Origin: Opitutales bacterium
Lineage (GTDB): Bacteria; Verrucomicrobiota; Verrucomicrobiia; Opitutales; PNEW01
Assembly (NCBI GenBank): GCA_965197745.1
Contig: CBDANS010000007.1
Span: 1,052,306-1,116,305, forward strand
Reading direction: 5' to 3'
Length of the DNA: 64,000 bases
In this document: positions 2,392-35,177 of the stretch, in pieces
Layout of the letters: each line of letters starts with the position of its first letter
Numbering within the stretch: position 1 is the stretch's first letter
Made by a program: the position numbers and the translations under genes
Notes under the pieces: model-generated
Told to the model about the DNA's origin: nothing
The model's database searches: none
Seen by the model: only the letters and a program-made list of their open reading frames with translations

Positions 2392-4776
2392 ATGCTTCGA
2401 AAGCTCATATTTTTTGCGGTGACTGCTATAATGTTAAGCAGTTTCCAATTTCTTTACGCACATAATGTGTCTTTTCCTTTACCCAGTGATAAGATCAATG
2501 AATACCCTTTTAACATGGTGGGAAAAGTTTCCTCGAGAGATTTCGTTGGTTCTGGCACAGCAATATCACAAAAGGTTGTTCTCTCCGCAGCACATGTTTT
2601 TTTTGATATTGAGAATCTAGATTGGCATCCAAGCCCTTTTAGGTGGAACTTACGCCATTCTCCATCCGATCGAATTTTTGATATAAGTGCGCGATCTTAC
2701 AATCATTTTAGCGACTTTGCTTTAGCCACACGCCGTTTTCAACCTGATGATCCGGCTTTCAACTCATATGAACAATTTAATCGCGATGTCATTACTCTTA
2801 TATTTTATGAAGATGTAGCTAATGGAGGCCATGCAGGACGGGGTAGCAACCGAATCACCGATAACTCTGATAAAATGATCGTCGGATATCCTAACCTGAA
2901 CTACCCCGATTATGATCAGAGAAGAGACACAATGCATTCGACTAGTCTTGATGGGAGTCCTGCCAAATATGAACTGATAGACTACTATGACCGACAGGGT
3001 TCTATAAGTCGACTTTATGAAACTTACGATTTGTCTACAGGTCCAGGTAATAGTGGGGGTCCGGTATACGGGTTAATTAGATTTGCGAATGGTACTGTTG
3101 ATTGGGGTGTAGTGGGTATAACTGTTGGTGGCCGTACAGGCGAGTCTTCCGTGGCGGTAGGTATTGACCAAGCTATTTCTGATTTAATCAAAGAGGCGGA
3201 ATCCACTTTTGATACTATCTCATCCGACGACCATGGATATACTCGCAGCACAGCGACCACGGTAGAACTTAATCGCTCTATTGCGGGCAACTTAGATACA
3301 GTTGGTGATATTGATTATTTTCGTTTTGTAATAAAGAGCGATGGAACGATAAATGCATATACAACAGGTGATACCGATACCCTTGGAACATTACAGAATA
3401 ATTCAGGAAACGTTATTACGACAAAAGACGGTAGTGGTTCAGGGGAGAATTTTTTAATTACACGGGTACTCAATCCGGGAACATATTACATCGCCGTCAG
3501 CAATTTCTCTTTTGAAAAAACAGGTAGATATTCTTTTCGCGTTGATTTTACTGAGACCATTAAATTACCAGACTTAGCGGTTGATTTTATTAGCGTAGAC
3601 AGAAGGTCAGTAGTAGCAGGTGAATCGGTTCGTGTTGGTTTCAATAGAAGTAACACGGGGGATAAAAATTCTGGTATATTCGCTCATGGGATCTATTTAT
3701 CGGGGGATAAAATTATTACAACCAGAGATACACGATTGTTAAATTTGAAAAATATAAGTATGAATGTGGGTGCTTCAGGAAGAATCTCTTTTAAAGTAAT
3801 TATACCAACGAATACAATTCCGGGTATTTATTACCTAAGTTATATTCTCGACTCTGATATGAAGATTAAAGAAACCGATGAGACTAACAACACAGGTTAT
3901 GCTGAAATTACGGTATCGGAACCTATTTCAGACGATGATGGAGACTTAGTGCTTGGTGGCTTTGGTGATATAGCTGGAAAGGATATTCAGCACCCTAATG
4001 GAAACGTCTTTGACCAAATTTTGCTCACTGGACCATTCATAAAGCTCAAGGCGAAGCCAGGTCAGATCACGAGGGCATCGTTTATGGATGAAAACGAAGA
4101 CATTGTCCAGGTAGAGTTCTCAGGCAGCGGTACCTTTACCGTGACATTAGACCCGACCACTTTTTTACCTCCCGCTTTACCCCCACGCTATAACCAGCAG
4201 GTGGAGTACGTCACCGGCAAGCCCAGCGTGGTGATCGAAGGAGCAGACTCCTCGACCTTCTTCAGTATCTTCACGGTGGGATCGATCAACGCGGTGAACC
4301 AGACGTTGTTCCCCGAGGGACAGGTCTATGATGCGCAAGCGGATGTGACTCTGGTGGAGGTAATTAACTCCACGGGTACCGGAGGGATGCAGTTGTCGAA
4401 CACGGTGTTCAGTGGAAGCACGGGCAACGTCGGGGTGATTGCAAGAGTGGTGCCGATTGCAGTACGCTTAACAGTTGGTGATATCGATGCTGATGGCGAT
4501 GCAGTGCCGCACCTCTTGTTCGGAGAAGGTTCGTTCACGGTGCCATCTGGCAATCCCGGGTTGCGCATCACCGGTGGAGACTTGAAGCAAACAAACAGTG
4601 CTTCAATCGTGATCGCGGAGAGCAGATCGACAACTCCCGGGTTTGAGATCCTGATCTCTCAGAATAACTTCAAGTCCGATGGAATCCCTCAGCCCGCTCA
4701 AAGTATAGATGCTACCTTTGTAAACGAGGACGGAACTGTGATCCCCGTAACTGTGGATAATTTAACAATCGAATAA
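2392..4776 (+). CDS. Secreted multidomain trypsin-like (S1/V8-type) serine protease with PPC-like, CARDB-like and a shared 276-aa C-terminal domain
   Basis: Signal peptide present. His motif SAAHV and Ser motif GPGNSGGPVYG. DIDYFRF...GTYYIAVS (pre-peptidase C-terminal type). PDLAV...ETDETNNTG (CARDB-like). The C-terminus is about 80% identical to that of 60004..61980. Confidence 0.8.
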   Translation: MLRKLIFFAVTAIMLSSFQFLYAHNVSFPLPSDKINEYPFNMVGKVSSRDFVGSGTAISQKVVLSAAHVFFDIENLDWHPSPFRWNLRHSPSDRIFDISARSYNHFSDFALATRRFQPDDPAFNSYEQFNRDVITLIFYEDVANGGHAGRGSNRITDNSDKMIVGYPNLNYPDYDQRRDTMHSTSLDGSPAKYELIDYYDRQGSISRLYETYDLSTGPGNSGGPVYGLIRFANGTVDWGVVGITVGGRTGESSVAVGIDQAISDLIKEAESTFDTISSDDHGYTRSTATTVELNRSIAGNLDTVGDIDYFRFVIKSDGTINAYTTGDTDTLGTLQNNSGNVITTKDGSGSGENFLITRVLNPGTYYIAVSNFSFEKTGRYSFRVDFTETIKLPDLAVDFISVDRRSVVAGESVRVGFNRSNTGDKNSGIFAHGIYLSGDKIITTRDTRLLNLKNISMNVGASGRISFKVIIPTNTIPGIYYLSYILDSDMKIKETDETNNTGYAEITVSEPISDDDGDLVLGGFGDIAGKDIQHPNGNVFDQILLTGPFIKLKAKPGQITRASFMDENEDIVQVEFSGSGTFTVTLDPTTFLPPALPPRYNQQVEYVTGKPSVVIEGADSSTFFSIFTVGSINAVNQTLFPEGQVYDAQADVTLVEVINSTGTGGMQLSNTVFSGSTGNVGVIARVVPIAVRLTVGDIDADGDAVPHLLFGEGSFTVPSGNPGLRITGGDLKQTNSASIVIAESRSTTPGFEILISQNNFKSDGIPQPAQSIDATFVNEDGTVIPVTVDNLTIE

Positions 4777-8273: not shown

Positions 8274-8306
8274 CCAAACCTAAATGACTATGGTCGGGTG
8301 ATCGGG

Positions 8307-8881
8307 TTACGTAAACTGGTCCACCGAGAGAGTTAGTCTGGAGAGGTTAATGTTGAAGTTAAGTTGGTAGAGGAAGTCAAGGCTTGGGCGCAATGAGGGC
8401 GTAGCCCGAATGGAGCACGAGCCTTGTTTATAGGCGTCCAAAGCGAAGCGTCTCGGTGTAATGTTGCCGAGACTGCGGTGTGGGCGAACGTTGTTATAAA
8501 GCCAGCGCCAGTCTTCGATAACGACACGCGCTTCGGTCAATGTCCATAATTGCTCGCGATTTAAGCACTCCTCGCGAAACCGGGCGTGGAAGGATTCAAT
8601 GTATCCGTTGTTATTCTCGCTATCGCTCGTTGAGGTGTCGCTTCGCTCGGTAGCCAGGGACTTCCCGGTTCGATGTAGATGGTTCTGATATTCATGGCAG
8701 CAAGCCAGGTCCGCAACTGCGTTTCTATTAAATGGCTTCGCATGTCGTCGCTTCGCTCCTCGGAACCGAACCGTTGTCGCTGCGGATATATGGTGGAGGT
8801 CCCTATTGCTTGATCAGCTTCTGCATGACAGCCCGTGCGCTCTGTGCATTGATAAGACGATCGACAGGGATGAACAGGCAC
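8307..8881 (-). pseudogene. IS3 OrfB (DDE) remnants
   Basis: Fragments TEARVVIEDWRWLYNNVRPHRSLG and IYIEPGSPW lie in different frames. Confidence 0.75.
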
Positions 8882-9260
8882 TCGCGCGTATAGGTCTTCG
8901 CTTCACTTGAGTGTCGTCGCTTTCAGCTCCTCGGTACATCGAGTATCGTCAGCATCTTGAGACGGCCACCGCGGATCGTCTTATCGTGGATAAAATCCCA
9001 GCTGAAAACGTGGTCAGGATATTCGGCGGCAGTCAGCAAGCCGGTGGAGACACCCCGTCGCCGGCGTTTCGGCCTTGCGCGGGGCAATGGCCAAACCTAA
9101 CTCGCGACGCAAGCGTTGCACCAAGCGTTTACCTACCTCCCATCTTTCGTCCTTCAACAACTTCGTGATCCTGGTATAGCCCCCAGCTGGCATATTGCCG
9201 GGATAACCGCCGTATCGCCGCTTTCAGCTTCATTAACCACACGCATCAGATTGCCTCGTC

Positions 9261-9659
9261 TCATAGACATACGTGGGACGGTGGAGGAGAAAATATCGGC
9301 ACGCTCCACGCATCGAACATCGGCCCCGAGCTGCATATCTTTCCGCCACCTGAGGTTTGTGCCCAGGGCTTACTACCGAGCGTATGCGACATCTCCCATT
9401 TTTTTTCGAGGGTCTCCTGCAGGATCTCTATCCCTAGCAGCTTGTCCGCCAGCATCCGCTTTAACCGCGTGTTTTCCTTCTCCAGTTCCTTCATCCGCTT
9501 GGCCTGATTCACATCAATCATCACAAACTCCCGTTTCCAACGGTGGAAGGTCTGTTCGCTGAGGTTATTCTCACGGCACACTTCCTGGGTCGACTTGCCT
9601 CTGTCTGCTTGCCGCAATATCCGTATCTTCTCTTCGGTTGTATATCTTTTGCCTTTCAT
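9261..9659 (-). CDS. IS3 OrfA (HTH), copy 2
   Basis: MKGKRYTTEEKIRILRQADRGKSTQEVCRENNLSEQTFHRWKREF...LKRMLADKLLGIEILQETLEKK. Confidence 0.7.
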   Translation of the reverse strand: MKGKRYTTEEKIRILRQADRGKSTQEVCRENNLSEQTFHRWKREFVMIDVNQAKRMKELEKENTRLKRMLADKLLGIEILQETLEKKWEMSHTLGSKPWAQTSGGGKICSSGPMFDAWSVPIFSPPPSHVCL

Positions 9660-10031
9660 TGTCTGAGTCCTTTCCAGGTTACCCAGAATAACTTTTCAAG
9701 GGGCTCAGTTTCCGTGGTCTCGACCAACTACTACCTTCTTGAAATAGAAGCAAAGCCTCGTGGATATGAGAATACTGTAGTCCATGCTTATTCGATTCCA
9801 AAACAACAGCTTTATGAAGTTTATCAATCGCTAACAAAGCATTTTCAGCCAAAATAGTTATATCACATTCTTCTTTAGTTAATGAGGGTTTATCACAAGT
9901 TTATATTAGTGTTTCCATAGTTGTATCTTTATATAAGTCAGTGTTTATTATTATTTTTTAGTTAAGATCTAATTCTAGGAAATTCCGTTAATAAATTCAT
10001 AAACACATCATTAAGTGTCTCATGTGTCTTT

Positions 10032-10613
10032 TTAATTATGACTTATGTTTTCGATGTCATCTTCCACTTTCTCATCGAACTTAATTAAAGACTTTTTCCA
10101 GTCAAATAACGCTTCCCATTGGCCAGTCGAGGGATTTTCTCTTTTCCAGTTATTTTTCTCTTGTAGTTCCCAAAATGAGTCAGCAGCTCTTTCGTCAATA
10201 CCCATAGCATCGCAAATATCGATGAACTCATCGTAATTTTTCGGAAGAGGACGGGGTGAAGGAAGGGCTCTTTGCCTCTCCTGCGCTGCGGGGGTCAATA
10301 AGGTGTAAGTATTATATACTCTCCTGCCTCGACCTGATTCTATTTTCAGCAACGTTATAGCGCTTAATATTTTAAGCACAGCGGAGGTTTTACTTTTCGA
10401 TAAACCCGCGCGGTAAGCGATCAATCCGATCGAAGCAGAGAAGGGACGAAATTGATCTCCATGATCATTAGCAATCCAGTTCAGGGCACTGTAAACAGAA
10501 ATTGTAAATGAAGCGTTGGTCCCCAGTACTTCCTGTAAAATAATTATATGCGCATCCTTATAATTTCGGTAATAGGAGAGCTCTTTACTTTGACCTGCTG
10601 GATTTTCAGGCAT
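10032..10613 (-). CDS. Winged-helix DNA-binding protein, possible replication/primosome organiser of the integrated element
   Basis: The N-terminal half looks like an HTH_36-type wHTH (LSKSKTSAVLKILSAITLLKIESGRG). The Trp-rich C-terminus is DnaD-like. It overlaps the upstream HTH gene by 8 nt. Family assignment is from memory. Confidence 0.45.
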   Translation of the reverse strand: MPENPAGQSKELSYYRNYKDAHIIILQEVLGTNASFTISVYSALNWIANDHGDQFRPFSASIGLIAYRAGLSKSKTSAVLKILSAITLLKIESGRGRRVYNTYTLLTPAAQERQRALPSPRPLPKNYDEFIDICDAMGIDERAADSFWELQEKNNWKRENPSTGQWEALFDWKKSLIKFDEKVEDDIENISHN

Positions 10614-10875
10614 GTCTCTTCCTGTGCTTGCGGGCTGCTGTCTGCTGATTCTCCAACTTTTCCAAAGTCGTTAAGAGCGTCTCCCGGCGGTATAACTTTC
10701 TGCCTCCTATGCGAATCGGTTTAAGCAGTCCGCGCCTGTCGTAATTTCGTACTGTGCGAATGGAGACCCCGAGTATTACTGCGGTCTCTGACTCCCTCAG
10801 CAACAGGGGCGGGTCGATACGAACTGAATTGAGTGTAGATGGGGTATCCATGGTGCCTTGTAATTTAAGGCACAC
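10606..10875 (-). CDS. Excisionase/AlpA-type (MerR-like HTH_17) DNA-binding protein
   Basis: LRESETAVILGVSIRTVRNYDRRGLLKPIRIGGRKLYRRETL. The likely true start is Met at 10851. Confidence 0.7.
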   Translation of the reverse strand: MCLKLQGTMDTPSTLNSVRIDPPLLLRESETAVILGVSIRTVRNYDRRGLLKPIRIGGRKLYRRETLLTTLEKLENQQTAARKHRKRHA

Positions 10876-10941: not shown

Positions 10942-11253
10942 TTAATGGAGAACAGGTGAATTCCCTCTTTCAAGAGCGATTTTAATTATTTCTGTGACTG
11001 AAAAAACGTTTGGATAAACACGTTGTATCAACCCATTTTGATCGGGACAATCTTCGTTGCTATTATCTATCGCATCGGCTTGTCCCTCAATACGGGAATA
11101 GTATCGCCTTTTTCGAAGAACCGGGTTAAGGTTTTTACCAAATCCCCGCTCAACAATCGCTTTCTCAATTGCATCAGCCCGTGGTAGAGATTCAGATGTG
11201 CGAAAGTGCTCAACAGCCAGAAAGGATTTCCACTGCGCCTCTGTCCCAAACAA
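10942..11253 (-). CDS. Hypothetical protein (103 aa)
   Basis: The ORF starts where the DUF6499-like homology to module 2 ends. No homologue is recognised. Confidence 0.3.
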   Translation of the reverse strand: MFGTEAQWKSFLAVEHFRTSESLPRADAIEKAIVERGFGKNLNPVLRKRRYYSRIEGQADAIDNSNEDCPDQNGLIQRVYPNVFSVTEIIKIALERGNSPVLH

Positions 11254-11941
11254 CTGGACTTTTGTGGCGGGGAATCCTCTTCCAGTTTTTCGGTAATAAG
11301 CTTGATGATTTTATCACGGGAACTTTTGTCTCTCATAGAGACACGAGGGACGGCAAATAAACGATAAGTATTAACTGTCCAGTGCCAATACAGTGCCGTA
11401 TCCGAAAAACAGCTCTCAAGAGCTGCTTGCGAATGGTCTTCGTGGGGCAGCGCAGGGGCTATTTCTATATCAGGAGGTATTGCATCTTCGTTGGGATATA
11501 ATCCTGAAGGGACGATCTCGCAAATATCCGCCGTATAGTCCGCCCAATAATCTCTGTACGCCTTCTGAAATCCTCGCGGGGTATTGAGCCAGGTTGAATC
11601 AAGCTTTAAAGGGGCACGCCCTTTTTTCTTATCCTCTTTGTATTCTTCTAAAAACTCAACCTGGTCCTCTTCTATCCTCGGACCTACTACCTGACGATGT
11701 CCTTCTTTGGGCCCAAGCCCACGTGGGATTATTACTGGTTCATGCATCCAGTTCCAGGCCGCTCCCGCAAAATAATTACGGTCATCTTGAACGAACCTGA
11801 ATTTTTCCCATCTTCCCTCTTTGCCCTGAAGACTATGCTAAGCTCCTTTGTTTTTTCTTGAAACGCTTTATTGCGTCGAAGTAATTCCCATATCTTCGCC
11901 GGTATGCCGTCCTCACAGGGATTGTAGATTGATAAGCTCAT
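11067..11941 (-). pseudogene. DUF6499-like protein (WELLRRN motif), frameshifted copy; homology to the intact copy ends near 11240
   Basis: The gene is split into 11732..11941 and 11067..11747. Relative to 33766..34476 there are 2 extra nt near 11850, which breaks the frame. The N-terminal motif is IPAKIWELLRRNKAF. Confidence 0.6.
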
Positions 11942-12735
11942 GCACGCTAACGGTCTAATGGTTTAAATGTGACCACCCTTGGAATTCCATCCTTCACTCC
12001 TTGAAATGGACACAGCCCAGCGCTTCAATTGCTGGAGATGATCCCTGTTTATTTGCAATAACGTTAGCCCTCACAACTTCGCGAACGCAAGGTGCAATTT
12101 GAGATTTACCCGGTATCGTTCTCCCCGCCATGTTTGAAATTCGACTGGAAGCACGCTGGCTAATGTATCTCCCGCGACTCTCCCACTTCCTGCACCGACA
12201 GATCCTCTGGGGTGTTTCTATCCCTGTCCCTTAGCTGTCATGAGCGCTGTCCCGTGCGTGAGTTTCCCTGCCCCCGAACTGCGATGAAAAATTTCCTTGC
12301 CCACGAGGTTCCGTCCTTCCGCTCTAACTTATGCACTGGCGCAACCTTATGGCTGATTTCCCGCTCGCCCGTATCCAACACTACGACGCACGTAACAGGC
12401 TGCTTGCCATCGCGGGAATGTTTTGCTCTCTCCTTCACGATGAAAAATTATGACACAAAATCGGCGCGGTGCAAACGCAATATTTTTCAAACTGACCCAC
12501 TAACGGTAACCGTTAATCTGGCCAACCCCCTCGCTGGTGAGGCTGAAGATGTCACCCAAAGTAATCATGGAAAACTTTAAAACCCCTCTCAAATCTATAA
12601 GCGAAAATAGGATCGATAAGTTGGACTGCTGTTCGGCAATCAGGGCACAGATAGCGGTTGAAGGTTTGGAATCGAGTTGTTTTACAGCTAAATTCGCTGC
12701 TTAAGGGTATCATGAACCCGGATGGCAATACCCCA
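11942..12735. other. Conserved non-coding spacer of integrase module 1
   Basis: Long identical blocks with 34477-35177, but two non-triplet indels. Contains the palindrome TAACGGTAACCGTTA. Flanked by a 24-nt direct repeat. Confidence 0.6.
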
Positions 12736-14022
12736 TCAATCTAATGGTTTAAATGCGACAACCGATTGCTCTGCATTTGCCGGGAGAATTGAGAAATATT
12801 TTTCCCCCTCTGTTCTGCTAGCAAGACTCCGGTAATGATCAAACAGTACCTGGTCACTCGAACGATGGCCCAGCATCGCTGCTGTCTTGCTTGAATCACT
12901 GGTCAGGGCATAATAGTAGCTGCCGAAGCTGTGGCGCATCGCATTGCTGTAGTTTCCCCCCCAATGGGGAAAGCCCGCTTGTTTGGTTAACTTAGCAAAG
13001 TTTATGTATGAATTTGCGGGTGCAACTTTACCCTTTTTATTATGACATAGCTGCAACCATGCCACACAATTGTCCATAAGATCCATGACTCTTAACTGGC
13101 GCTTTTTAGCTATCTGTGGGCCAACCGTCAGTAACTTGCGCTCCAGATCAATAACCGACCAGTCAAGCCGGTAAATCTCAGTGCTCCTTAACCCTGCGAA
13201 CAGCCCTAGTGCCACCAATGGGAGCAGCCCCATATCTTCATCTGTCTTTGCCGCATGCAAAACCAAATCTTCTGCTTGAGTGACTTTGAGAATGACAGGG
13301 GGCTTCCAGTCTATTTTTGGGATTGGAATTTTCTTCACGGGGTTATCGACCCGAAATCCCTTGTTCACCGCATAGTTAAAAAAGCTGCTTAAGCATAAGC
13401 GGTAGTTTATAATGCTTCTCACAGAGAGATCGGTAAAGTTATTGAGCCACTCCTCTATTTCCGTTTGAGAAATCTCCTTGACCACTCGGCTCCCAAAGTT
13501 TCTAGAGAAGATTCCCAGCCGGGAGCGGATATCATTTATGGAGCGCGAGCGCAGATTCCGGTTTTCTTTTTCCTCAATCAATGTTGCCGTTAATTCCAGA
13601 ACCGTAATATCACCGGCAGGGGGATTCAAATGCAGCTTGGCAAACTCCGCTGCCTGCAAGAGGGTAATGTCGAAACCTTCCAGTATTTCGAATGCGTTGA
13701 AAGCGTCCTTGGACTGGTACCCGGTCAGGTTATAATGATGCTGCCCGTGTTGAAGCAATTGTTCGTGTTGTTCTTTTGCCCAGGCAAAAGCGACCTCTTT
13801 ATCCTTGAACTGTCTTCTCATTCGCTTGCCCGCGAACTTCGCGGGAATCAAAACCTGGTAGGAAAATCCGTAATCATCGCCAGCGGTTCGATTGATAACT
13901 TCCCTGATTGTGATAGCACTTTTTTTAGGGTGCTCCCAGCTATTAAGGGGACTCGATTTTTTACGTTTTCCTTTAGTTGCCTCCATCAAGCAAACTAATG
14001 CCTCAATCAGGTTTACTTGCAA
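12736..14022 (-). CDS. Tyrosine recombinase/integrase (module 1)
   Basis: 428 aa with catalytic-region motifs AGLRSTEI, MRHSFGSYY, LGHRSS and FDHYRS. About 88% identical to 35178..36464. Confidence 0.9.
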   Translation of the reverse strand: MQVNLIEALVCLMEATKGKRKKSSPLNSWEHPKKSAITIREVINRTAGDDYGFSYQVLIPAKFAGKRMRRQFKDKEVAFAWAKEQHEQLLQHGQHHYNLTGYQSKDAFNAFEILEGFDITLLQAAEFAKLHLNPPAGDITVLELTATLIEEKENRNLRSRSINDIRSRLGIFSRNFGSRVVKEISQTEIEEWLNNFTDLSVRSIINYRLCLSSFFNYAVNKGFRVDNPVKKIPIPKIDWKPPVILKVTQAEDLVLHAAKTDEDMGLLPLVALGLFAGLRSTEIYRLDWSVIDLERKLLTVGPQIAKKRQLRVMDLMDNCVAWLQLCHNKKGKVAPANSYINFAKLTKQAGFPHWGGNYSNAMRHSFGSYYYALTSDSSKTAAMLGHRSSDQVLFDHYRSLASRTEGEKYFSILPANAEQSVVAFKPLD

Positions 14023-14079: not shown

Positions 14080-15107
14080 AACGATTCGATGATCCGTTCT
14101 GCCAAGGGCTTGCTGGTTCGATATAGAGGGTATTGATTTTCATCGCAGTTAGCCAGGCTCTCAATTCACTTCCAATAAATGGCTTCGCATGTCGTCGCTT
14201 CGCTCCTCGGAACCGATCCATTGTCGCTGCGAATATATTGTGGCGGCCCATGACGGTCGAGCAGTTTTTGCATGACCCCGCGCACCTTCTGCGCATTGAT
14301 ATGGCGATCGACATGGATCACCCGACACTCGCGGGTGTACTCGTCGAGGACGGTCAGCATTTTGAGATTCCCACCGCGAGCCGTCTTATCGTGGATAAAA
14401 TCCCAGGTCCAAACAGGGTCGGGATGTTCGGCCTTGGTCGGCAGCCCGGTGGAGATACCCCGGCGCCGACCTCTTGGCTTGCGTGGGGGGATCGCCAGAC
14501 CCAGTTCACGTCGCAGACCTTGCACGAGACGTTTACCCACCTGCCAGCCTTCGTCCTTCAACAGCTTCGTGATCTTCGGATAGCCCCACCTCGCCTATTG
14601 CCGTGATAACCGCCTTACTGCCGCCTTCAGTTTCGTTAGCCAGGCATCCGGATACTTCGCCCGATACGCATAGGTGGAGCGGTGCAGGTGAAAGTATCGG
14701 CACGCTCCACGCATCGAACACTGGCCCCGGGCCACAAGTCTCTCTGCCACTTGCCGCTTGTGCCCAGGGCTTACCGTTTTTTTTCGAGGGTCTCCTGCAC
14801 AATCTCTATCCCCAGCAGCTTGTCCGCCAGCATCCGCTTTAACCGCGCGTTCTCCTTCAAAGAGTTCCTTCATCCGCTTGGCCTGGTTGACATCGATCAT
14901 TCCAAACTCACCCTTCCAGTGGAGGAAGCTCAGTTCGCTTAGGTTGTTCTCACGGCATCCTCTTCCTGGGTCGATTTGCCTCTGTCTGCTTGCCGCAATA
15001 TACGTATCTTCTCTTCGGTTGTGTATCTTTTATCTTTCATTGTCTAAGTCCTTTTTAGGTGGCCCAGACCAACTTTTCAAGTGTCACAGTTTCCGTGGTC
15101 ACGACCA
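14080..15107 (-). mobile_element. IS3-family element, copy 3, truncated by about 420 bp at its orfB end
   Basis: Homology to copy 4 begins abruptly at AACGATTCGATG (14080), next to the integrase upstream region. The intact end is ...CCGTGGTCACGACCA at 15107. Confidence 0.8.
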
Positions 15108-15372
15108 ATAATATCCCTAGAACTAATATTATATGCATACTTAGAGGTAATATATTACCGATTACTTCTTTCACTTCCATTGTAATTTTCCTTTCTGTTA
15201 TTTGTTTATCTGAATTGTGACTTTTGTATATAATTCCCTAATTTAGCTTAATTTCTCGTTCTCATTGGATCATGGTCCAAACTCAACAAATTGGTTCAAC
15301 CGGACTTGTTTGACGAATGGAAGCAAGCTTCACGTTTGGTCTGGCTGAAATCGAAAGCGGATATAGGCGGAC

Positions 15373-17580
15373 TCACTGCTGGCGGGGCAGAGTTTCCGCG
15401 ATAGCTGGCGATGAGGTCGTGGGTAGCTCGATGATCATCTCGGTAAATGCAGCGGGTTCGGATTCCACTAGTATGCTTCCCCCGTGTTCGCGTACGATAT
15501 CATTGGAGAGGGCAAGGCCCAGCCCGGTGCCCTGATTCGTCGGCTTGGTCGTGAAGAACGGGGTAAATATCTTCTTGATGACATCGGGCTTTATTCCGTT
15601 TCCATTGTCGCGAATGCGGATTTGGATACAGTCCGTCATGCGCCGGGTGGTGAGCCGCAGAATGGGCTCGTAGTGCACGGTCTTTTTCCCTTCGGTGGCG
15701 GACGAATCGGGAGACTTGCCGTTACCCGCCTCGACGGCGCGCCGCTTCTCGTCAGTGGCATAACAGGCGTTGCTCGCCATGTTCAGGAACACCCGGCCCA
15801 GTTTCTGTTGAATGACGTCGAGTTCCCCCACCTCAGAGTCAAAGTCCTCTTCGATTTTCAGGCAGAATGTCGGGTCAGTGACCCGGGCGCTGTGGTAGGC
15901 AAACAGGGTGTGTTTGGAGAGCAGGGCGTTGATATCCGTCGGCTGCCGCTCGCCAGAGTGCCTACCCATCATAAGCATGCTTTGTACGATCTGGTTGGCC
16001 CGTTCGCCGTGCTCGTGGATGCGCTTGAGGTTGTCGGTAAGATCGCCACTGATCTCGTCGATCAGCTCGCGGCTTTCTTCACCGCCTTCACCAGTGGATT
16101 TTGGGATCTCCTCCAGTAGTTCTTCCAGTAGTTCCTCCGAAACCTCCGAAAAGTTCTTAATAAAATTCAGCGGGTTCTTGATCTCGTGGGCGACGCCAGC
16201 GGTCAATTCGCCGAGCGACGCTAGTTTTTCACGCATGATGAGTTGGTCCTGAGCCCGTTCCAGGTCGGCCAGTGCGCCCGCGAGTTGATCGTTCTTGCCC
16301 TTGAGCTCTTCGGCTAGCTTTTCCACCATATTCAGCCGTTGGACTTCCAATGCGTGGCGGCGAAAGACCTCAAGTGCCGCAGCCATATCCGCTATCTCAT
16401 CGTTCCCACTGATATCGACGGTTGCCTCCAAGTCACCCTTAGCCATGCGGCGCATTCGATCCGACAGCTGTCCAAGCCGACGTGACAGCACCCGGCCGAC
16501 ATACAGCCAAGCGATCAGTACCGCTCCGACGACGCTGATGACGCTCAACGCGAACAAGAGATTGCGTCCGGTAAGGATCGTTCGAGCGGATGTGAGGGAG
16601 GCATCCCGTACGCTTGCGTGAGCCGCACTTACCAGGCTTTCGACCTCGGACACGAGTTCTATGGCAAGAACACGATTATGGGTAAGCAAGTCTCTCTGGT
16701 ACTGGTCAAGCGCGAGTTCCCGTGAGCGGAGGTTGAAACCACCCTCCGGCCCAATGCCCAACTCAATCAACCGGGTGAAGAGAGGCGAGAGTTTCTGGCG
16801 CATCGCTGTTGATCCGAGTATGGACAGGCGCCGCTCGATACCGGAGGCGGTGGACTCGAAGCGCTCCCGCAGCGGTTCTAGCAGGGGGATGTCCGAGACA
16901 TTGAAGGCGGTTGCCAGAATCTGATCCCCAATGGTGGCATCAGCCTGTAACTCGGCAAGGTGGCGATAGCGATTGAACTCCGCTTGCGAGAAATGCTGTG
17001 CTCGGGGTGCGGGCATATCGTTAAGGTTGTCGTAGCCCGTCATTGCATAGAACAATTGATCGTCAATCGATGGAATCAGGATGTTGGTCAACTTGCTGCG
17101 CAGCGCCGCCAGTTCTCTGCGCAGCGCCTGTTGCAGGTTGGTCAGCGCGAAGTGTCCCTCCACCGAATCCTCAATGGCTTTGATGTTTGTAATCAGAGCA
17201 TCACCCCGCGCACGGATGCGCTTTGAGCGTTTCGCTTCCCCGCCTTTCCGTGTCAATGCGGCCAACTGCGTCTCGAAGGCCTTTCGATCCTCGTCGATTT
17301 TTCCAACGACGCGGGCCAAGTCCTCCGGCGACACAGCGGTAGTCAAGCGCAACGCGGCGTCTACGAGAGCGCCGCTTTGTTGCGCGGTACCAAAGGCGGC
17401 CGCCATCTTCGGGACACTATCCTCGTTCACGCGGCTCTGGACATCACCCACCCGGGCGAAGGATACCCAACCGACCAGACTGGCGACGATGGTGAGGGCA
17501 ACTCCGCCGCCGATACCTATATAGAGCTGCGTCGAGATTAGGAAACGGCTTTCAAATAGGCGTTTAAGTAGGTCTTTCAC
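15373..17580 (-). CDS. Sensor histidine kinase with two TM segments, a large periplasmic region and HAMP
   Basis: H-box AGVAHEIKNPLNFI, N-box NMASNACYA, G-boxes DNGNGI and GTGLGLALS. Confidence 0.9.
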   Translation of the reverse strand: MKDLLKRLFESRFLISTQLYIGIGGGVALTIVASLVGWVSFARVGDVQSRVNEDSVPKMAAAFGTAQQSGALVDAALRLTTAVSPEDLARVVGKIDEDRKAFETQLAALTRKGGEAKRSKRIRARGDALITNIKAIEDSVEGHFALTNLQQALRRELAALRSKLTNILIPSIDDQLFYAMTGYDNLNDMPAPRAQHFSQAEFNRYRHLAELQADATIGDQILATAFNVSDIPLLEPLRERFESTASGIERRLSILGSTAMRQKLSPLFTRLIELGIGPEGGFNLRSRELALDQYQRDLLTHNRVLAIELVSEVESLVSAAHASVRDASLTSARTILTGRNLLFALSVISVVGAVLIAWLYVGRVLSRRLGQLSDRMRRMAKGDLEATVDISGNDEIADMAAALEVFRRHALEVQRLNMVEKLAEELKGKNDQLAGALADLERAQDQLIMREKLASLGELTAGVAHEIKNPLNFIKNFSEVSEELLEELLEEIPKSTGEGGEESRELIDEISGDLTDNLKRIHEHGERANQIVQSMLMMGRHSGERQPTDINALLSKHTLFAYHSARVTDPTFCLKIEEDFDSEVGELDVIQQKLGRVFLNMASNACYATDEKRRAVEAGNGKSPDSSATEGKKTVHYEPILRLTTRRMTDCIQIRIRDNGNGIKPDVIKKIFTPFFTTKPTNQGTGLGLALSNDIVREHGGSILVESEPAAFTEMIIELPTTSSPAIAETLPRQQ

Positions 17581-22723: not shown

Positions 22724-25220
22724 TCAGAATAGCTTGCGCAATGTCACGCCGAAGGTCCGTGGTTCGCCCAGGAAGGCGTTAAAGGTCTGAGTCGAGTCCG
22801 GCCCCAGTTCCCCTACCTTGTAGCGGCGCGTCAAAGGCAATTTGAATGTAGTTTTTGGCGAACAGGTTCTTGGCCCACAGCTCCAAGCTCCAATCCCCGT
22901 TGATGCTCCCTATGCCAATGCGCCCATTTACCAAGGCAAAACTATCTTGAAGTTTCTCAACATCCAAGTCTGAACCGGTGTTATAGCTACTCATGTATCG
23001 CAGATTCAGATGCAGGAAACCGAGTAAGGCCCCGTTGAGATCGCGTTCATAGGTGGCAGCACCGGTAACAGTCCATTCAGGCGCGTTGGTGAGCTGTTGT
23101 CCCGCCAAGGATGCATTGGAAATGTTCGCGCCGTACTTCGTATCGGCGTAGGTTAGACCTCCACGCACCGTCAGACCCTCTGATAGCAGGGCTGTCGTTT
23201 CCAGTTCAAGCCCCCGAGAGGTCACCTCATCCAGATTCTCGACTATAAACTGGATTCCATTGAAGGTGTTAAGCTGGAAGTCTTCGAAGTCCATGTAAAA
23301 CATCGTCGCATTGACAGTCACACGCTGGTCGAAGAGGCCAAACTTGCCGCCAACCTCGAAGGAGTCCACTGTCTCCGGCTCGAATTAGAGATCCGCGATC
23401 GAAGGAATGGCGCCCAAGAGTGGATTGGACAGACCGGAACGGTCAAGATTGAAGCCGCCTCCCTTGTAGCCGTGCGCATAGTTGGCGAAGATCAAATCGT
23501 CATCACCGAAGTTATAGGCTATACTGAAGGTGCTGGACCATTCTGTCTCCTCGCGGTCGCCAGTGTATGCACCATCATTGAACGGATTGGTAGATGGCAG
23601 ACACACAAGCCCTATAATGGTGGGTGCCATTTCCGCTGGAATTAGTCCCGAAGCGACCGCCTGTTGCACATTAGTGACGAAAGAAGGGGTACAGGCACGG
23701 TTATTGCTTAGCAAGCTTGCATCGAGATCTTTGGTCTCTTTGGTGTAGCGCAATCCCACAGTGAACTCAAAGTCATCCGCGAAGGTCAAGGTATTATGAG
23801 TGAATATGGCCGAGCTCCTCGACTGCTGAAAAAATTCGTCCTGAACTACACCGTCACCTTCCAAGAACACGGTGCCAGGCGCCAAACCCGTGAACTGAGA
23901 GTAAAAACCACTGAATGGATCTCCGGAAACAAGGCCGTTGATGTAATTCTCATAGTGGGCCCCCGTACGGATGGCGTCTCGAAAAGCAAGGTCCTCCTTA
24001 CTGTAGAAAAACCCCACCAGCCAGTCCACCATTCCGATTTCGCCCTGGGCCCGAAGTTCCTGGGTAAATGTCTCGAACCCTTGGATAAAACTATCCTCGT
24101 CTCTGTACAGAATATCCACGTTGGTAAAGTCGACATCCTGGCTACGAGCCACCTGCCAATCGCGGTAGACTGTAATTGGGGTAACCGTGGCAAACTTTGC
24201 ATCCCAGTTGATCTCAGCTGACAGTCCCCATTCTTTCACATCCTGTTGATAGCCGCGATCAGCATCGACAGCGCTCTTGCGCTCGAACGGATCGCCAAGC
24301 AGTGTGCCGCCGAGGGCCTGTATGAGGCCAAGCGTCGGTCCAGGCACCCAAGTGACAGCACCGCAACACTGTTCATTGCGGTCGGCGTAGTCGCCGATCA
24401 TGCGGACGCTGATAAAGTCGTCCGGTTCCCAAAGCAACTGGCCACGGAATAGCACACGGTCCCGATCGTTGTAATCTCGTTCCAACTCAATATCTTCCAG
24501 AAATCCGTCCCGTTCACTGAACACGGCATCAATGCGCGCTGCCAAGACGTCTTTAATTAAGCTCCCCGTAGCGCCACCTGTCACCCGAATATTGCTATAA
24601 TCGCCGTAACCGACTTCAGCGTACCCGTTGCCTTGGTACTCTGGTGCCTTGGTAATGACATTGATCAGTCCTGCCGAGGTGTTGCGCCCAAACAGGGTTC
24701 CTTGCGGGCCGCGCAGGATTTCGATGCGCTCGACCTCGCCGAGTTCGGTCAAACCGACGTTGTTGCGGTTCCGGTAGACGCCGTCGACAAAAATGCCAAC
24801 TGCGGATTCGAGGCCAGGGTTGTCGCCCGTGGTACCGACACCGCGGATGCGCGCTACTGCGCCCGCGGATTCCGACCCGGAGCTAGATAAAAACAAGCTC
24901 GGCGAGATGGCCATGAGTTCGCGGATATCCTGAACACCGGCAAACTCAATCTGTGTCTCCGAGTAGGGCGTAACGGCAATGGGCACTTCTTGGGATAAGC
25001 GTTCCCGCTTTGTGGACGTCACCACAAATTCCTCCATATCTATCACCAGGATCGATTGTTCTTCCTGTGCCTCAATCTCCTTCCCTTGTCCGTTATCTCC
25101 ATCAAGGGGCTCATGGATCCTTGCAACAAAGAAAAGGCAGATTACAAAATACCTACCCTTATTGTTAAATGTCATATATTCTTCCCTCTCGCCTGATTTG
25201 GAGCCCGCACAGAGGTCCAA
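22724..25220 (-). pseudogene. TonB-dependent receptor with an in-frame TAA and a C-terminal frameshift
   Basis: Plug motifs IEILRGPQGTLFGRN. A TAA stop sits between ...IADL and FEPETVDSFEVGGK (23370-23384). The canonical end PRTFGVTLRKLF* is in another frame and stops at 22724. Confidence 0.8.
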
Positions 25221-25376
25221 TTAGAACAGTCTACTTTTAAGTAGACTCACATATTCCAGTGGAAATCAAGCAGGATAAGTGGTCTAGTCCACAAAATTCA
25301 TAATTTTGCGATTGCCTGGGTAGTTGAATTACATTAAGATATTTTCTGTCAACAAGATATCGTATAATCTCACCAT
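25077..25376. repeat. 300-bp direct repeat, copy 1 (5' end and leader of the TonB-receptor gene)
   Basis: Nearly identical to 27051-27350. Confidence 0.9.
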
Positions 25377-25525
25377 CCTACACACAATTATATGCGGTGT
25401 AATAACCCTATTGGAATTTCAAGCTTTAGCGAGGCGAGAGGGTTGCCGTTAAGAGAATTTGGAAATAAAAAGGCGATTGAGCTAGTGTTTCATAGATTCT
25501 CGTGGACAAGGGTTTGTTGAATCAA

Positions 25526-25687
25526 CCTGCAACTCGGCGAGGTGGCGATAGCGATTGAACTCCGCTTGCGAGAAATGCTGTGCTCGGGGTGCGGGCACAG
25601 CGTTAAGGTTGTCGTAGCCCGTCATTGCATAGAACAATTGATCGTCAATCGATGGAATCAGGATGTTGGTCAACTCGCTGCGCACCT
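25526..25687 (-). pseudogene. Fragment duplicated from the histidine-kinase gene (equivalent to 16945-17107)
   Basis: About 95% nucleotide identity. Encodes LTNILIPSIDDQLFYAMTGYDNLN... Confidence 0.85.
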
Positions 25688-34476: not shown

Positions 34477-35177
34477 GCGCACTATTGCTTCTTCTAGTGG
34501 TATTAAATTTAACAAACGTTTGGACTCATCCTCCAATACTTAAAGTAGGCACTTTAGCCAGCGCTTCAATTGCTGGAGATGATTCCTGTTTATCTGCAAT
34601 AATGTTAGCCCATACAACTTAGCGATCGCAAGGTGCAATTTGAGATAACCCTGTATCGTTCTCCCCGCCATGTTAGAAATGCGACAGGAAACACGCTGGC
34701 TATTGTATCTCCCGTGACTCTCCCATTTCCTGCACCGACAGATCCTCTGGGGTGTTTCTATCCCTGTCCCTTAGCTGTCATGAGCGCTGTCCCGTGCGTG
34801 AGTTTTCCTGCCCCTGAAGCTTCGCCCTTCTGCCCGAACTTATGCACTGGCGCAACCTTATGGCTGAAATACCGCTCGCCCTTATCCAACACTACGAGGC
34901 ACTCGACAGGCTGTTTGCCATCGCGGGAACGTTTTGCTCTCTCTTTCACGACGAAAGACTATGACACAAAATCGGCACGGTGCAAACGCAATATTTTTCA
35001 AACTGACCCACTAACGGTAACCGTTAATCTGGCCACCCCCCTCGCTGCTGAGGCTGAAGATGTCACCCAAAGTAATCATGAAAAAAGGCACAGATAGCGG
35101 TTGAAGGTTTGGAATCGAGTTGTTTTACAGCTAAATTCGCTGCTTAAGGGTATCATGAACCCCGATGGCAATACCCA
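34477..35177. other. Conserved non-coding spacer of integrase module 2
   Basis: See 11942-12735. Confidence 0.6.

What the first reader, a model, noticed from the sequence alone, without database searches (positions are those of the whole stretch)
11942..12735. Long conserved non-coding spacer between the integrase and the DUF6499-like gene, present in both integrase modules
Seen:
- 11942-12735 and 34477-35177 share long identical blocks. One example is the 73-nt run CTGCACCGACAGATCCTCTGGGGTGTTTCTATCCCTGTCCCTTAGCTGTCATGAGCGCTGTCCCGTGCGTGAG.
- They differ by a 29-nt indel (about 12270-12330) and a 68-nt indel (about 12570-12645). These break every long reading frame, so the ORFs called here are not colinear between the copies.
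- Both copies keep the near-palindrome TAACGGTAACCGTTA (12501-12515; 35012-35026).
- Both keep a hairpin GGGTAT-N17-ATACCCC next to the integrase stop.
- In module 1 the spacer is bracketed by a 24-nt direct repeat (22/24 matches), TCTAATGGTTTAAATGYGACMACC, at 11954-11977 and 12740-12763. The second copy is the integrase 3' end. Module 2 retains a degraded version.

Inference:
- The region is too long and too conserved for a plain intergenic gap.
- Candidates are a structured RNA, an extended attP/arm-site region, an oriT, or a small non-autonomous insertion that duplicated the integrase 3' end.
- I do not recognise it as a known RNA family.
Basis: partly seen in the sequence, partly recalled or inferred. 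Interest (0 to 1): 0.7.

Follow-up and report, generated by a model that had tools for sequence, protein, structure and literature searches.

The report
Mosaic insertion splitting integrase–partner gene junction
The long "spacer" is a patchwork of inserted DNA that split an integrase gene from the partner gene it directly abuts in a close relative, leaving a decaying copy of the old junction behind; it shows no sign of being a structured RNA and is confined to one small family of genomic islands in Opitutales bacteria.

Summary
The window comes from an Opitutales (Verrucomicrobiota) genome. Related islands yielded about 16 further copies of the integrase-to-dn interval. One close relative (L040, integrase 83% identical) has no spacer: the integrase stop and the dn start codon are 5 nt apart. 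In spacer-bearing copies, the 24-nt "direct repeat" next to dn is the displaced original integrase 3' end (34-44 nt plus stop plus 5-nt linker). In the older spacer type, a decayed copy of the first 47 nt of dn follows the integrase stop. The body of the spacer is mosaic: blocks come and go, and IS3, MITE-like, 1.8-kb and about 7-kb segments occupy the same interval in relatives. I found no support for a structured RNA from Rfam, covariation or folding energy. The only part shared by all copies is a promoter-like block followed by a 63-86-codon ORF. That ORF stays open with in-frame indels, yet dN/dS is about 1. Most likely reading: an insertion that brought an internal promoter and leader for the dn operon. 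This is a modest finding, a new variant of a known kind.

The parts
12736..14022 (-). Tyrosine integrase gene (428 aa), intact. Its last 24 nt (12740-12763) are the left copy of the repeat (DR1).
   Evidence: Pfam Phage_integrase. Intact in all copies, with dN/dS 0.15-0.33. Repeat match.
12644..12735 (-). Block A: about 91 nt directly after the integrase stop, containing the GGGTAT-N17-ATACCC hairpin (12705-12733) and a second small hairpin. Found only in 'A-type' copies, where it replaces the pseudo-dn fragment seen in L004-type copies.
   Evidence: K <= 0.023 among five copies against integrase dS 0.06-0.39 for the same pairs. Copies in L046 and L047 are 83-89% identical. Fold z = -0.55, not better than shuffles. 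No terminator called on the minus strand.
12575..12643 (-). The 68-nt segment missing from module 2. It is also present in L047 (86%) and partly in L046, so its absence from W2, L001-L003 and L052 is most simply a deletion.
12501..12515 (.). Near-palindrome TAACGGTAACCGTTA. Kept only in the closely related copies.
   Evidence: Not conserved in L004, L041, L046, L047 or L058.
12447..12503 (-). Promoter-like block. The most conserved stretch is GTGGGTCAGTTTGAAAAATATTG, followed by a -35-like TTTGCA(C), a 16-17-nt spacer and a TG-extended -10 CATAAT (12475..12447), reading towards dn.
   Evidence: 9/12 match with TG. An 11-copy alignment shows TCATA[AG]T invariant and TTTGCAC nearly invariant. 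Caveat: the module-2 version (CATAGT) falls below the scan threshold, and the scan count is not above shuffles.
12238..12438 (-). Small ORF (66 codons here, 63-86 elsewhere) starting at a GTG 8 nt after the -10 hexamer. Module-2 copy at 34758-34949. The 29-nt deletion in W2 (equivalent to W1 12279-12307) changes its C-terminus.
   Evidence: Open in the same frame in all lineages. All four internal indels are multiples of 3, and P(all lineages open) is about 0.0006 under a star-tree simulation. Against: dN/dS about 0.8-4, flat codon-position variation, only 4 database relatives, no family match, AlphaFold2 pLDDT 55.
12030..12250 (-). Non-coding. Present in W1, W2, L002, L004, L052/L053 and L056-L060. 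Absent from L001, L003, L047, L049 and L051. Its roughly 180-nt core is bracketed by a 9-11-nt direct repeat (G/A)ACAGGGAT.
   Evidence: stops in all six frames, 1-nt indels. K 0.02-0.16 against integrase dS 0.13-0.59. Fold z +1.14 and +1.20. No covariation.
11942..11990 (-). Displaced, decaying copy of the integrase 3' end: DR2 at 11954-11977, a pseudo-stop TAG at 11947-11949, and the 5-nt linker CGTGC at 11942-11946. It would read VVTFKPLDR*. The dn start codon follows directly.
   Evidence: It aligns with the real integrase end, stop, linker and ATG of the empty site L040. nhmmer with an integrase-3' profile scores 9.8-21 in seven copies against a shuffled maximum of 2.6.
10942..11941 (-). 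dn gene (WELLRRN motif). Here it is split over three frames (69-, 226- and 103-aa ORFs) by two frameshifts. It is intact at 331-335 aa in L001, L002, L004, L040, L047 and L049. An HTH_17/MerR-type excisionase-like gene (10606-10875) and a 193-aa winged-helix-like gene (10032-10613) follow it.
34477..35177 (-). Module-2 copy of the spacer (A-type). It lacks the 68-nt and 29-nt segments, and its DR2 is degraded.

Best explanation
The region is not an ancestral intergenic spacer, and I found no evidence that it is a single RNA gene. It is a lineage-restricted, mosaic insertion that split an integrase-dn gene pair. In a close relative that pair is separated by only 5 nt.

The insertion happened at or near the integrase stop codon and duplicated the junction. 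The left copy now supplies the working integrase C-terminus. The right copy is a non-functional relic (last 34-44 nt of the integrase, its stop codon and the 5-nt linker) sitting directly in front of dn. In the older form of the spacer (L004-type), a decayed copy of the first 47 nt of dn also follows the integrase stop, so about 95-100 nt of junction was duplicated.

The two window copies are a derived 'A-type'. In them the pseudo-dn piece has been replaced by a hairpin-containing block. The interval then went on accumulating deletions, a roughly 180-nt block, and, in relatives, IS3, MITE-like and kilobase-sized segments.

The only part kept in every copy is a promoter-like block pointing at dn, followed at once by a short ORF that stays open.

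Inferred function: the insert uncouples dn and the genes after it (excisionase-like HTH_17, winged-helix protein) from integrase transcription. It does this by providing an internal promoter plus a translated or leader-like 5' region.

Shown: the insertion and duplication anatomy, the mosaicism, and the absence of any RNA-structure signal. Inferred: promoter activity, read-through into dn, and the mechanism of insertion. For the mechanism, a roughly 100-nt diverged duplication fits recombination with a circular DNA carrying a homologous junction, or site-specific recombination, better than it fits a transposase.
For: 1. Empty site. In L040 the integrase (83% identical) ends ...GATAAGTAG, followed by CGCGC and then the ATG of a dn orthologue (71% identical to L004's intact dn).

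2. Junction alignment. The right junctions of 12 copies align with the integrase end, stop, linker and ATG. The left junctions of L004, L041, L049 and L050 carry a GTG-initiated decayed dn start. The same is seen in L056-L059.

3. Profile scans. The pseudo-int copy scores 9.8-21 and the pseudo-dn copy 21-25, against shuffled maxima of 2.6 and 0.7.

4. Compact gene order in relatives. In 13 more distant integrase loci the next ORF starts 4-8 nt before the end of the integrase stop codon.

5. Mosaicism and repeated use of the interval. Block presence and absence vary between copies. IS3 copies interrupt L041. L047 has a 1.8-kb segment flanked by repeats 79% identical over 28 nt. On the L048/L055 contig, about 7 kb of cargo separates the integrase from dn, with a decayed copy of that integrase's own 3' end in front of dn. 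L056-L060 carry a MITE-like 276-nt element.

6. The spacer body occurs nowhere except in this interval.

7. The promoter block is conserved across 11 copies.

8. The small ORF stays open with in-frame indels.

9. The integrase is under purifying selection, while most spacer blocks diverge at rates between those of integrase non-synonymous and synonymous sites.
Against: Polarity is not proven. On an integrase tree L040 nests within the spacer-bearing copies, so it could be a secondary precise loss between the roughly 100-nt repeats rather than the ancestral state. The integrase genes are themselves mosaic, so the tree is weak either way.

No donor for the spacer body was found. It has no detectable homology to int, dn, other island parts, plasmids or phages.

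The junction has no dyad symmetry of 7 nt or more, as a recombinase core site might.

Promoter evidence is consensus plus conservation only. The scan count is not above shuffles. Four of the 11 aligned copies, including module 2, have the weaker CATAGT, and module 2's version fails the scan. Verrucomicrobial promoter rules are not established.

Blocks A and D are much less diverged than integrase synonymous sites. I attribute this to recent spread by recombination, but it could reflect constraint.

Several source contigs are low-coverage long-read assemblies (2x-8x), so some frameshifts and single-base differences may be errors.
Confidence: 0.62

Rival explanations
1. Moron-like unit with a real small gene. 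The insert is an autonomous transcription unit whose product, a basic protein of 63-86 aa with one hydrophobic or amphipathic helix, is the selected function. The rest is scaffold. This overlaps with the best explanation and differs only in what is under selection.
For: The ORF is open in the same frame in all lineages. All four internal indels are multiples of 3. L049 has an ATG start. Simulated P(all open) is about 0.0006, although the star-tree assumption overstates independence. The long form has a recurrent conserved C-terminus (...GLIGWILAGKKTYTGKTPQDQAKEPQEH) in P0121-P0123, L001 and L047. A promoter-like block lies directly upstream. The unit sits between genes that abut in a relative. 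The spacer core has slightly higher GC, 0.54-0.56 against 0.44-0.50.
Against: dN/dS is about 0.8-4 and variation is flat across codon positions. The start is GTG, there is no Shine-Dalgarno sequence, and the start lies 8 nt after the -10 hexamer. C-termini differ between copies, L003 has a premature stop and L051 a frameshift. Only 4 relatives exist among 5.8 billion proteins. There are no family matches. AlphaFold2 gives pLDDT 55 and pTM 0.25. No terminator follows it.
Confidence: 0.3
2. Site-specific accretion. The integrase 3' end and junction act as an att-like site. Integrase-less DNA modules, comparable to cis-mobilizable elements, integron cassettes or pdif modules, are inserted and excised there by this or a related tyrosine recombinase.
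For: [quoted passage not shown] At least three unrelated fillings lie within a roughly 70-nt zone of the same junction, each with a displaced junction copy: the L004-type spacer, the A-type replacement, and the L048/L055 7-kb cargo. L047 has a nested insertion flanked by diverged repeats. An empty site nests among occupied ones, which is compatible with excision.
Against: The junction has no dyad-symmetric core. Breakpoints are not at a single nucleotide. The repeats are only 75-92% identical. No circular or alternative junction forms were observed. L046's 'cargo' is a rearrangement of nearby DNA, and IS elements are abundant here, so ordinary illegitimate or IS-mediated events could account for some cases.
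Confidence: 0.15
3. Structured non-coding RNA: a long leader, riboswitch-like element or sRNA encoded by the spacer.
For: Some blocks are far less diverged than integrase synonymous sites (A: K <= 0.023; D: K 0.02-0.16). A promoter-like block would start a leader of about 500 nt before dn. In L052 the hairpin stem shows a matched double deletion (GGGTAT/ATACCC becomes GGGAT/ATCCC).
Against: Rfam finds nothing at gathering threshold and only E of about 6 noise in the permissive search. RNAalifold covariation terms are unfavourable, +0.94 and +1.06, with 2 compensatory pairs out of 67 and out of 36. Folding z-scores are +1.14, +1.20, -0.55, +0.42 and -0.83. The best-conserved blocks are missing altogether from copies with intact integrase and dn genes. 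One relative lacks the whole region.
Confidence: 0.04
4. attP or arm-site region of the island, or an oriT.
For: It lies next to an integrase gene. It contains direct repeats and a near-palindrome.
Against: Homology between copies ends about 50-150 nt upstream of the integrase start, next to unrelated chromosomal genes (purS/ftsZ, amine oxidase, HSP90 and others). The island end is therefore on the other side of the integrase. The region is dispensable in L040. The palindrome is not conserved. There is no third copy of the repeat that could mark the far end. No relaxase or transfer genes were seen in the island genes examined.
Confidence: 0.05
5. The whole spacer is a decayed tandem duplication spanning the int-dn junction (a pseudo-dn 5' part plus a pseudo-int 3' part), with no foreign DNA involved.
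For: The two ends of the L004-type spacer are exactly such pieces. There are weak protein-level hints further in, for example DGKQPVECHVVLDK against the integrase's DKEQPVVAFQPLDK.
Against: Profile scans detect only 47 nt of dn and 34-44 nt of int. Nothing in the remaining 400-600 nt scores above shuffled controls. The blastx hits inside the body have E > 1.
Confidence: 0.08

Closest known systems
Phage or island 'morons': extra DNA with its own promoter inserted between two genes that are adjacent in relatives (definition as quoted in PMC4378225)
   Same: It is inserted between two genes that abut in a close relative. It carries a conserved promoter-like block and one short ORF. Its composition differs mildly from the flanks. 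The mechanism of acquisition is unknown.
   Different: No terminator was found. Whether the ORF codes for a protein is doubtful (dN/dS about 1). The insert is flanked by a roughly 35-100-nt duplication of the junction, which is not a feature of morons. The host is a small integrative island in Verrucomicrobiota, not a phage.
Tandem accretion and cis-mobilizable elements (CIMEs) at att sites of integrative elements (PMC5704250)
   Same: An integrase-less segment is bracketed by direct repeats that include the 3' end of the target gene. The target gene is reconstituted and the original end is displaced. Nested and tandem events occur at the same place. The segment decays by deletion.
   Different: The 'target gene' is the island's own integrase, and the site is internal to the island rather than at its chromosomal att site. 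No att core, excision product or parent ICE/IME is known. The repeats are diverged and the breakpoints are spread over about 70 nt.
Campbell-type (single-crossover) insertion of a circular DNA that carries a homologous segment
   Same: It produces direct repeats as long as the shared segment (tens to about 100 nt), with chimeric, non-identical copies, and leaves both flanking genes intact.
   Different: No donor circle is known. The source of a circle carrying an int-dn junction together with unrelated DNA is unexplained.
FseA/QseM-type DUF6499-DUF2285 regulators of proteobacterial ICEs (PMC10359603)
   Same: The downstream gene dn has a W-E-L-L-R-R-N motif that gives a weak match to PF20109 (Trans_reg_dom, formerly DUF6499). 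It sits in a mobile element beside an excisionase-like gene.
   Different: The match is below threshold (E 0.06-0.11; 13-14 bits against a 23.8-bit cutoff). There is no DUF2285 match. dn is a family of only 30 proteins confined to these MAGs. This comparison concerns the neighbouring gene, not the spacer.

Membership tests
Any Rfam RNA family / structured ncRNA | Match to a curated covariance model at its gathering score | tested here: not met
   No hit in either spacer at gathering threshold. The permissive scan gives only snoRNA and U6atac noise at E of about 6.
Any Rfam RNA family / structured ncRNA | Conserved secondary structure supported by compensatory changes and by stability beyond shuffled controls | tested here: not met
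   Covariation terms +0.94 and +1.06, with 2/67 and 2/36 compensatory pairs. z-scores +1.14, +1.20, -0.55, +0.42 and -0.83. Power is limited: 4-9 sequences.
Moron-type insertion | Lies between two genes that are adjacent in related elements | tested here: met
   In L040 the integrase stop and the dn ATG are 5 nt apart.
Moron-type insertion | Own promoter and own terminator flanking a single coding region | tested here: inconclusive
   A promoter-like block is conserved in 11 copies, but no terminator follows it. Evidence that the ORF is coding is contradictory.
Moron-type insertion | Nucleotide composition different from neighbouring genes | tested here: inconclusive
   The spacer core is 0.54-0.56 GC against 0.44-0.50 in the flanks, a small difference.
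CIME / site-specific accretion | [quoted passage not shown] | tested here: met
   DR1 is the real integrase end and DR2 is a displaced copy with stop and linker. This is a description of the anatomy only; it is not shown that these are att sites.
CIME / site-specific accretion | Repeats are functional recombination sites (core with recombinase-binding dyad; excision to a circle plus an empty site) | not testable with these tools
   No dyad of 7 nt or more in the junction. An empty site exists in a different genome. No circle junctions can be searched for here.
CIME / site-specific accretion | Derived from a decayed ICE/IME (remnants of integration or transfer genes) | tested here: not met
   The spacer body has no detectable similarity to int, dn, other island DNA, plasmids or phages.
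IS or MITE insertion (transposase-made) | Short target-site duplication (2-15 bp), terminal inverted repeats, multiple dispersed copies | tested here: not met
   For the spacer as a whole, the duplication is about 35-100 nt, there are no terminal inverted repeats, and there are no copies outside this interval. Sub-parts may qualify: the block D core has 9-11-nt flanking repeats, and the 276-nt element in L056-L060 has 29-nt inverted ends.
attP / arm-site region of this island | Located at the junction formed by the island ends, and conserved with the integrase | tested here: not met
   The island boundary is upstream of the integrase. The region is absent in L040 and in all loci with integrases at or below 51% identity.
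Integron | IntI-type integrase with attI and Pc, plus an array of attC-bounded cassettes | not tested
   No attC-like imperfect inverted repeats were noticed. The inserted DNA lies at the 3' end of the integrase gene and on the same strand, unlike attI. The comparison is one of mechanism only.
PF20109 Trans_reg_dom (DUF6499), for the neighbouring gene dn | Score at or above the Pfam gathering cutoff (23.8 bits) | tested here: not met
   13.3-14.1 bits, E 0.06-0.11, over residues 18-38 only. No hit at E <= 0.01 for the window's own fragments.

The most novel reading that the evidence does not exclude
The 3' end of this tyrosine integrase gene, together with its junction with dn, is a genuine secondary recombination site. 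At that site the integrase, or a relative acting in trans, repeatedly captures and releases integrase-less DNA modules ranging from a 0.5-kb promoter/small-ORF unit to about 7 kb of metabolic genes. That would make these Opitutales islands a capture platform that works like an integron or a pdif-module system but is built differently: the site lies inside the recombinase's own coding end, and each capture rebuilds the gene.
Probability: 0.1. Interest if true: 0.7.

Novelty: new variant of a known kind. Interest (0 to 1): 0.3.

Why it matters
It shows that a long, apparently conserved non-coding spacer repeated within one genome can simply be young, mosaic inserted DNA. The 'direct repeat' bracketing it is a relic of the junction it split.

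For annotation, the useful points are these. The integrase and dn form a tightly coupled pair in the empty-site relative. The spacer probably supplies an internal promoter for the dn, excisionase-like and winged-helix genes. One 63-86-codon ORF deserves a translation test.

The more interesting possibility is that the junction is a recurrent capture site. At least three unrelated fillings, each with a displaced junction copy, occur within about 70 nt. If this is recombinase-mediated, it would be a new way for a tyrosine recombinase to acquire cargo. The present evidence does not establish that.

Tried and rejected
- Rfam at gathering and permissive thresholds found nothing.
- BLASTN of the spacer against plasmid and phage collections gave no match.
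- A metagenome scan for the invariant promoter core returned only one unrelated locus sharing about 45 nt (L038 = L039). The viral scan returned nothing.
- RNA covariation on block D (4 sequences) and block C (9 sequences) gave no support.
- Single-sequence folding of blocks A, B and D, including the opposite strand for A and D, was no better than shuffles.
- Pfam on all spacer ORFs found nothing.
- The idea that the ORFs coupled to distant integrases are dn homologues was rejected.
- The idea that the whole spacer is a decayed tandem duplication of int and dn was rejected beyond the terminal 34-47 nt.
- The idea that the N-terminus of the small ORF is a third integrase-end copy is not significant.
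- The near-palindrome as a conserved operator was rejected, because it is not conserved in divergent copies.
- A dyad-symmetric recombinase core in the junction was not found.
- Copies of the spacer body elsewhere in the islands, as remnants of a tandem island, were not found.
- AlphaFold2 on the small ORF gave low confidence, so no fold search was attempted.
- The integrase tree does not resolve gain versus loss.
Full report
CHECKING THE OBSERVATION

The layout is on the minus strand: a 428-aa tyrosine integrase gene (12736-14022), then 794 nt without a long ORF, then a 69-aa ORF (11732-11941) that overlaps a 226-aa ORF. A second module has the same layout at 35178-36464 and 34477-35177. The two spacers align at 89% mean column identity, with one 68-nt gap and one 29-nt gap. 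The 73-nt identical run, the near-palindrome, the hairpin and the 24-nt repeat (22/24) are all at the stated coordinates, and none is expected by chance.

The duplication, however, covers the whole 2.8-kb module. The integrase gene is 89.7% identical between modules and the downstream gene 84.7%. Similarity between two copies therefore says nothing about constraint.

ORIGIN AND RELATIVES

A protein-guided scan of one genome per species returned 37 loci, nearly all from Opitutales and other Verrucomicrobiota MAGs. The spacer is detectable by BLASTN only next to the four closest integrases (80-96% identity).

Integrase relatives from the large protein collection, and the contigs encoding them, added further copies: L040-L053. 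Searching with the intact dn protein added L054-L060.

Both the small ORF in the spacer (4 relatives) and dn (30 relatives) are confined to these assemblies, out of 5.8 billion proteins searched. Plasmid, phage and viral collections hold nothing similar. The metagenome scan found one unrelated locus sharing only about 45 nt.

THE KEY RESULT: AN EMPTY SITE AND A DUPLICATED JUNCTION

In L040 the integrase is 83% identical to the window's. Its gene ends ...GTTGTCACATTTAAAACTTTAGATAAGTAG, followed by CGCGC and then the ATG of a 331-aa protein that is 71% identical to the intact 335-aa dn of L004. There is no spacer and only one copy of the repeat sequence.

I aligned all left and right junctions against this empty site. 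It would read VVTFKPLDR*.

In L004, L041, L049 and L050 (and in L056-L059), the real integrase stop is followed by the linker and a decayed copy of the first 47 or so nt of dn. There the ATG has become GTG, and the piece reads VSLLINNPCKYGIPA against dn's MSLSIYNPCEDGIPA.

A DNA profile of real integrase 3' ends finds the displaced copy in seven spacers, with scores of 9.8-21 against a shuffled maximum of 2.6. A dn 5' profile finds the pseudo-dn copy with scores of 21-25 against a shuffled maximum of 0.7.

So about 95-100 nt of junction was duplicated around DNA of other origin. Nothing else in the spacer body resembles int or dn, and the body occurs nowhere else in any locus or in the window.

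In 13 more distant integrase loci the next ORF starts 4-8 nt before the end of the integrase stop codon. That shows compact gene order is common in the wider family, although those ORFs are not dn homologues.

THE SPACER IS A MOSAIC

The window's two copies belong to an 'A-type'. Directly after ...TTAGAT, the pseudo-dn piece is replaced by a 91-nt hairpin-containing block A, followed in W1, L047 and partly L046 by the 68-nt segment.

Block D holds most of the 73-nt run. It is present in W1, W2, L002, L004, L052/L053 and L056-L060, and absent from L001, L003, L047, L049 and L051. It has stop codons in all six frames and 1-nt indels. Its roughly 180-nt core is bracketed by a 9-11-nt direct repeat.

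The same interval has other contents in relatives:
- Two IS3 copies in L041.
- A 1.8-kb segment with a 312-aa ORF in L047, flanked by repeats that are 79% identical over 28 nt.
- A rearranged 2.5-kb segment in L046.
- A 276-nt element with 29-nt inverted ends in L056-L060.
- About 7 kb of opposite-strand metabolic genes on the L048/L055 contig. There a decayed copy of that lineage's own integrase end again sits directly before dn.

CONSERVATION AGAINST A NEUTRAL BASELINE

The integrase is under purifying selection (dN/dS 0.15-0.33), with dS of 0.06-0.61 between copies.

Block A has K <= 0.023 among the five copies that share it. Block D has K of 0.02-0.16. Both are far below dS. The small-ORF block (K 0.16-0.29) and the DR2 block (K 0.10-0.51) are closer to neutral, setting aside the near-identical L002/L003 and L001/L003 pairs.

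Blocks A and D are exactly the ones that are variably present, and more diverged versions of block A exist in L046 and L047 (83-89%). The module as a whole is a recombinant mosaic. I therefore read their low divergence as recent spread by recombination rather than constraint. That is an inference.

IS IT AN RNA?

Rfam gives nothing. RNAalifold on block D (4 sequences) and block C (9 sequences) gives unfavourable covariation terms and almost no compensatory pairs. Folding energies of blocks A, B and D are not better than those of dinucleotide shuffles. Copies with intact integrase and dn genes lack one or another block, and L040 lacks the whole region. The structured-RNA reading is not supported.

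IS THERE A GENE?

One frame on the integrase strand is open for 63-86 codons from the same GTG in every lineage. L049 has ATG instead.

For coding:
- All four internal indels are multiples of three.
- A star-tree simulation gives about 0.0006 for all eight lineages staying open. This overstates independence, so it should be treated as a lower bound.
- The long form has a recurrent C-terminus.

Against coding:
- Pairwise dN/dS is about 0.8-4 and variable sites are spread evenly over codon positions.
- There is no Shine-Dalgarno sequence, and the GTG lies 8 nt after the -10 hexamer.
- C-termini differ. L003 has an early stop and L051 a frameshift, though L051's contig has only 2x coverage.
- There is no family match.
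- AlphaFold2 gives pLDDT 55 with a single helix.

The frame appears to be maintained while the peptide is barely constrained. Whether the ORF is translated remains open.

WHAT IS SHARED BY ALL COPIES

An 11-copy alignment shows an invariant TCATA[AG]T, a nearly invariant TTTGCAC 16-17 nt upstream of it, and a still better conserved GTGGGTCAGTTTGAAAAATATTG before that. In W1 this scores as a TG-extended sigma-70-like promoter at 12475..12447 on the minus strand, pointing at dn. The module-2 version has CATAGT and falls below the scan threshold.

No terminator is predicted between this block and dn. A transcript starting here would therefore run through the small ORF into dn, then into the HTH_17/MerR-type excisionase-like gene (10606-10875) and the 193-aa winged-helix-like gene.

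MOST LIKELY MECHANISM

Shown: an insertion split a tightly coupled int-dn pair and duplicated the junction; later events remodelled the insert; the interval is a hot spot for further insertions.

Inferred: the retained core acts as an internal promoter plus leader, so that dn and the genes after it no longer depend on integrase transcription.

The way the insertion arose is unknown. A diverged duplication of roughly 100 nt is too long for a transposase target duplication. It fits a single crossover with a circular DNA carrying a homologous junction, or site-specific recombination. The junction shows no dyad of 7 nt or more, and the breakpoints are spread over about 70 nt. That favours homology-driven or illegitimate events, without excluding a recombinase.

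Polarity is also unresolved. L040 nests among spacer-bearing integrases on a tree built from mosaic genes, so it may be a revertant. Even so, the repeats themselves still require an original insertion.

COMPARISON WITH KNOWN KINDS

The closest descriptions are a moron-type insertion (PMC4378225) and accretion with cis-mobilizable elements (PMC5704250).

It shares with morons the position between genes that abut in a relative, and the presence of its own promoter-like block. It lacks a terminator and a convincing gene.

It shares with CIMEs the flanking repeats that include, and rebuild, a gene end. But the site is inside the island, in the integrase's own gene, and no att function or parent element is shown.

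The neighbouring gene's 'DUF6499-like' label rests on a sub-threshold motif match only.

VERDICT

This is a real feature, correctly observed. For the most part it is explained as young, mosaic inserted DNA with a probable promoter function. It shows no sign of being a structured RNA, and it is not an att region. Interest is modest. The one reading that would raise it, recombinase-mediated capture of modules at the integrase's own 3' end, is not excluded, but it has no positive support beyond the anatomy.

Noticed in passing
window 43657-44976, 14080-15109, 8299-9727: Three copies of an IS3-family element (HTH_Tnp_1 + rve + rve_3). The copy at 43657-44976 looks complete (ORFs 44041-44907 and 43665-44183). 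The other two are 76-90% identical and partly degraded. One abuts the integrase-proximal end of module 1, and one interrupts the island relative to L003.
   Followed up: partly
window 10942-11941 (minus strand): The dn gene of module 1 is split over three reading frames (two frameshifts), while orthologues in L001, L002, L004, L040, L047 and L049 are intact at 331-335 aa. This is either a decaying island copy or long-read assembly errors. Module 2's dn matches only to about residue 283 before homology ends.
   Followed up: partly
L058 3215-3490 (also L056, L057, L059, L060): An AT-rich 276-nt element with 29-nt terminal inverted repeats (93% identical) inserted just upstream of dn. It looks like a MITE.
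   Followed up: no
L038 6270-6305 (= L039 598-633): The most conserved part of the spacer's promoter block (TAGTGGGTCAGTTTGAA...TTTGCACCGCG) occurs once in an unrelated metagenome contig. It sits exactly at the stop codon of a 1682-aa GC-rich ORF, where the sequence turns AT-rich. This could be chance, a shared regulatory motif or an island boundary.
   Followed up: no
L048 1308 onwards and L055 1-3500 (one contig, ERZ25072670 ctg190962): About 7 kb of opposite-strand genes (PQQ_2, zinc alcohol dehydrogenase, several GNAT acetyltransferases) lies between a related integrase (77%) and a dn homologue (49%). A decayed copy of that integrase's own 3' end sits directly before the dn start codon. 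This is an independent case of the same junction being split.
   Followed up: partly
L046 6534-7567 versus L003 11154-12193 and L001 12172-13175: Part of the DNA that replaces block D in L046, including a dCache-domain gene, is homologous, in inverted orientation, to DNA lying 4-5 kb downstream in L001 and L003. L046 therefore carries a rearrangement with one breakpoint inside the spacer.
   Followed up: no
L052 about 533-575: In this copy the post-integrase hairpin has GGGAT...ATCCC where the others have GGGTAT...ATACCC. One base is lost from each arm and pairing is kept. It is a single instance from a short-read scaffold.
   Followed up: no
window 25077-25376 / 27051-27350 and 16939-17102 / 25521-25684: Two pairs of near-identical short direct repeats (300 nt at 98%, 164 nt at 96%) unrelated to the integrase modules.
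   Followed up: no
window 2392-4776 (+) and 60004-61980 (-): A 794-aa CARDB and trypsin-like protein gene has a partial paralogue (76% nt identity over about 780 nt) at the other end of the window. Related sequence also flanks L002 and L004.
   Followed up: no
window 42114-42187 (+): tRNA-Gly(CCC) lies about 1.5 kb from the complete IS3 copy and about 5.6 kb from the module-2 integrase. It was not examined as a possible island attachment site.
   Followed up: no
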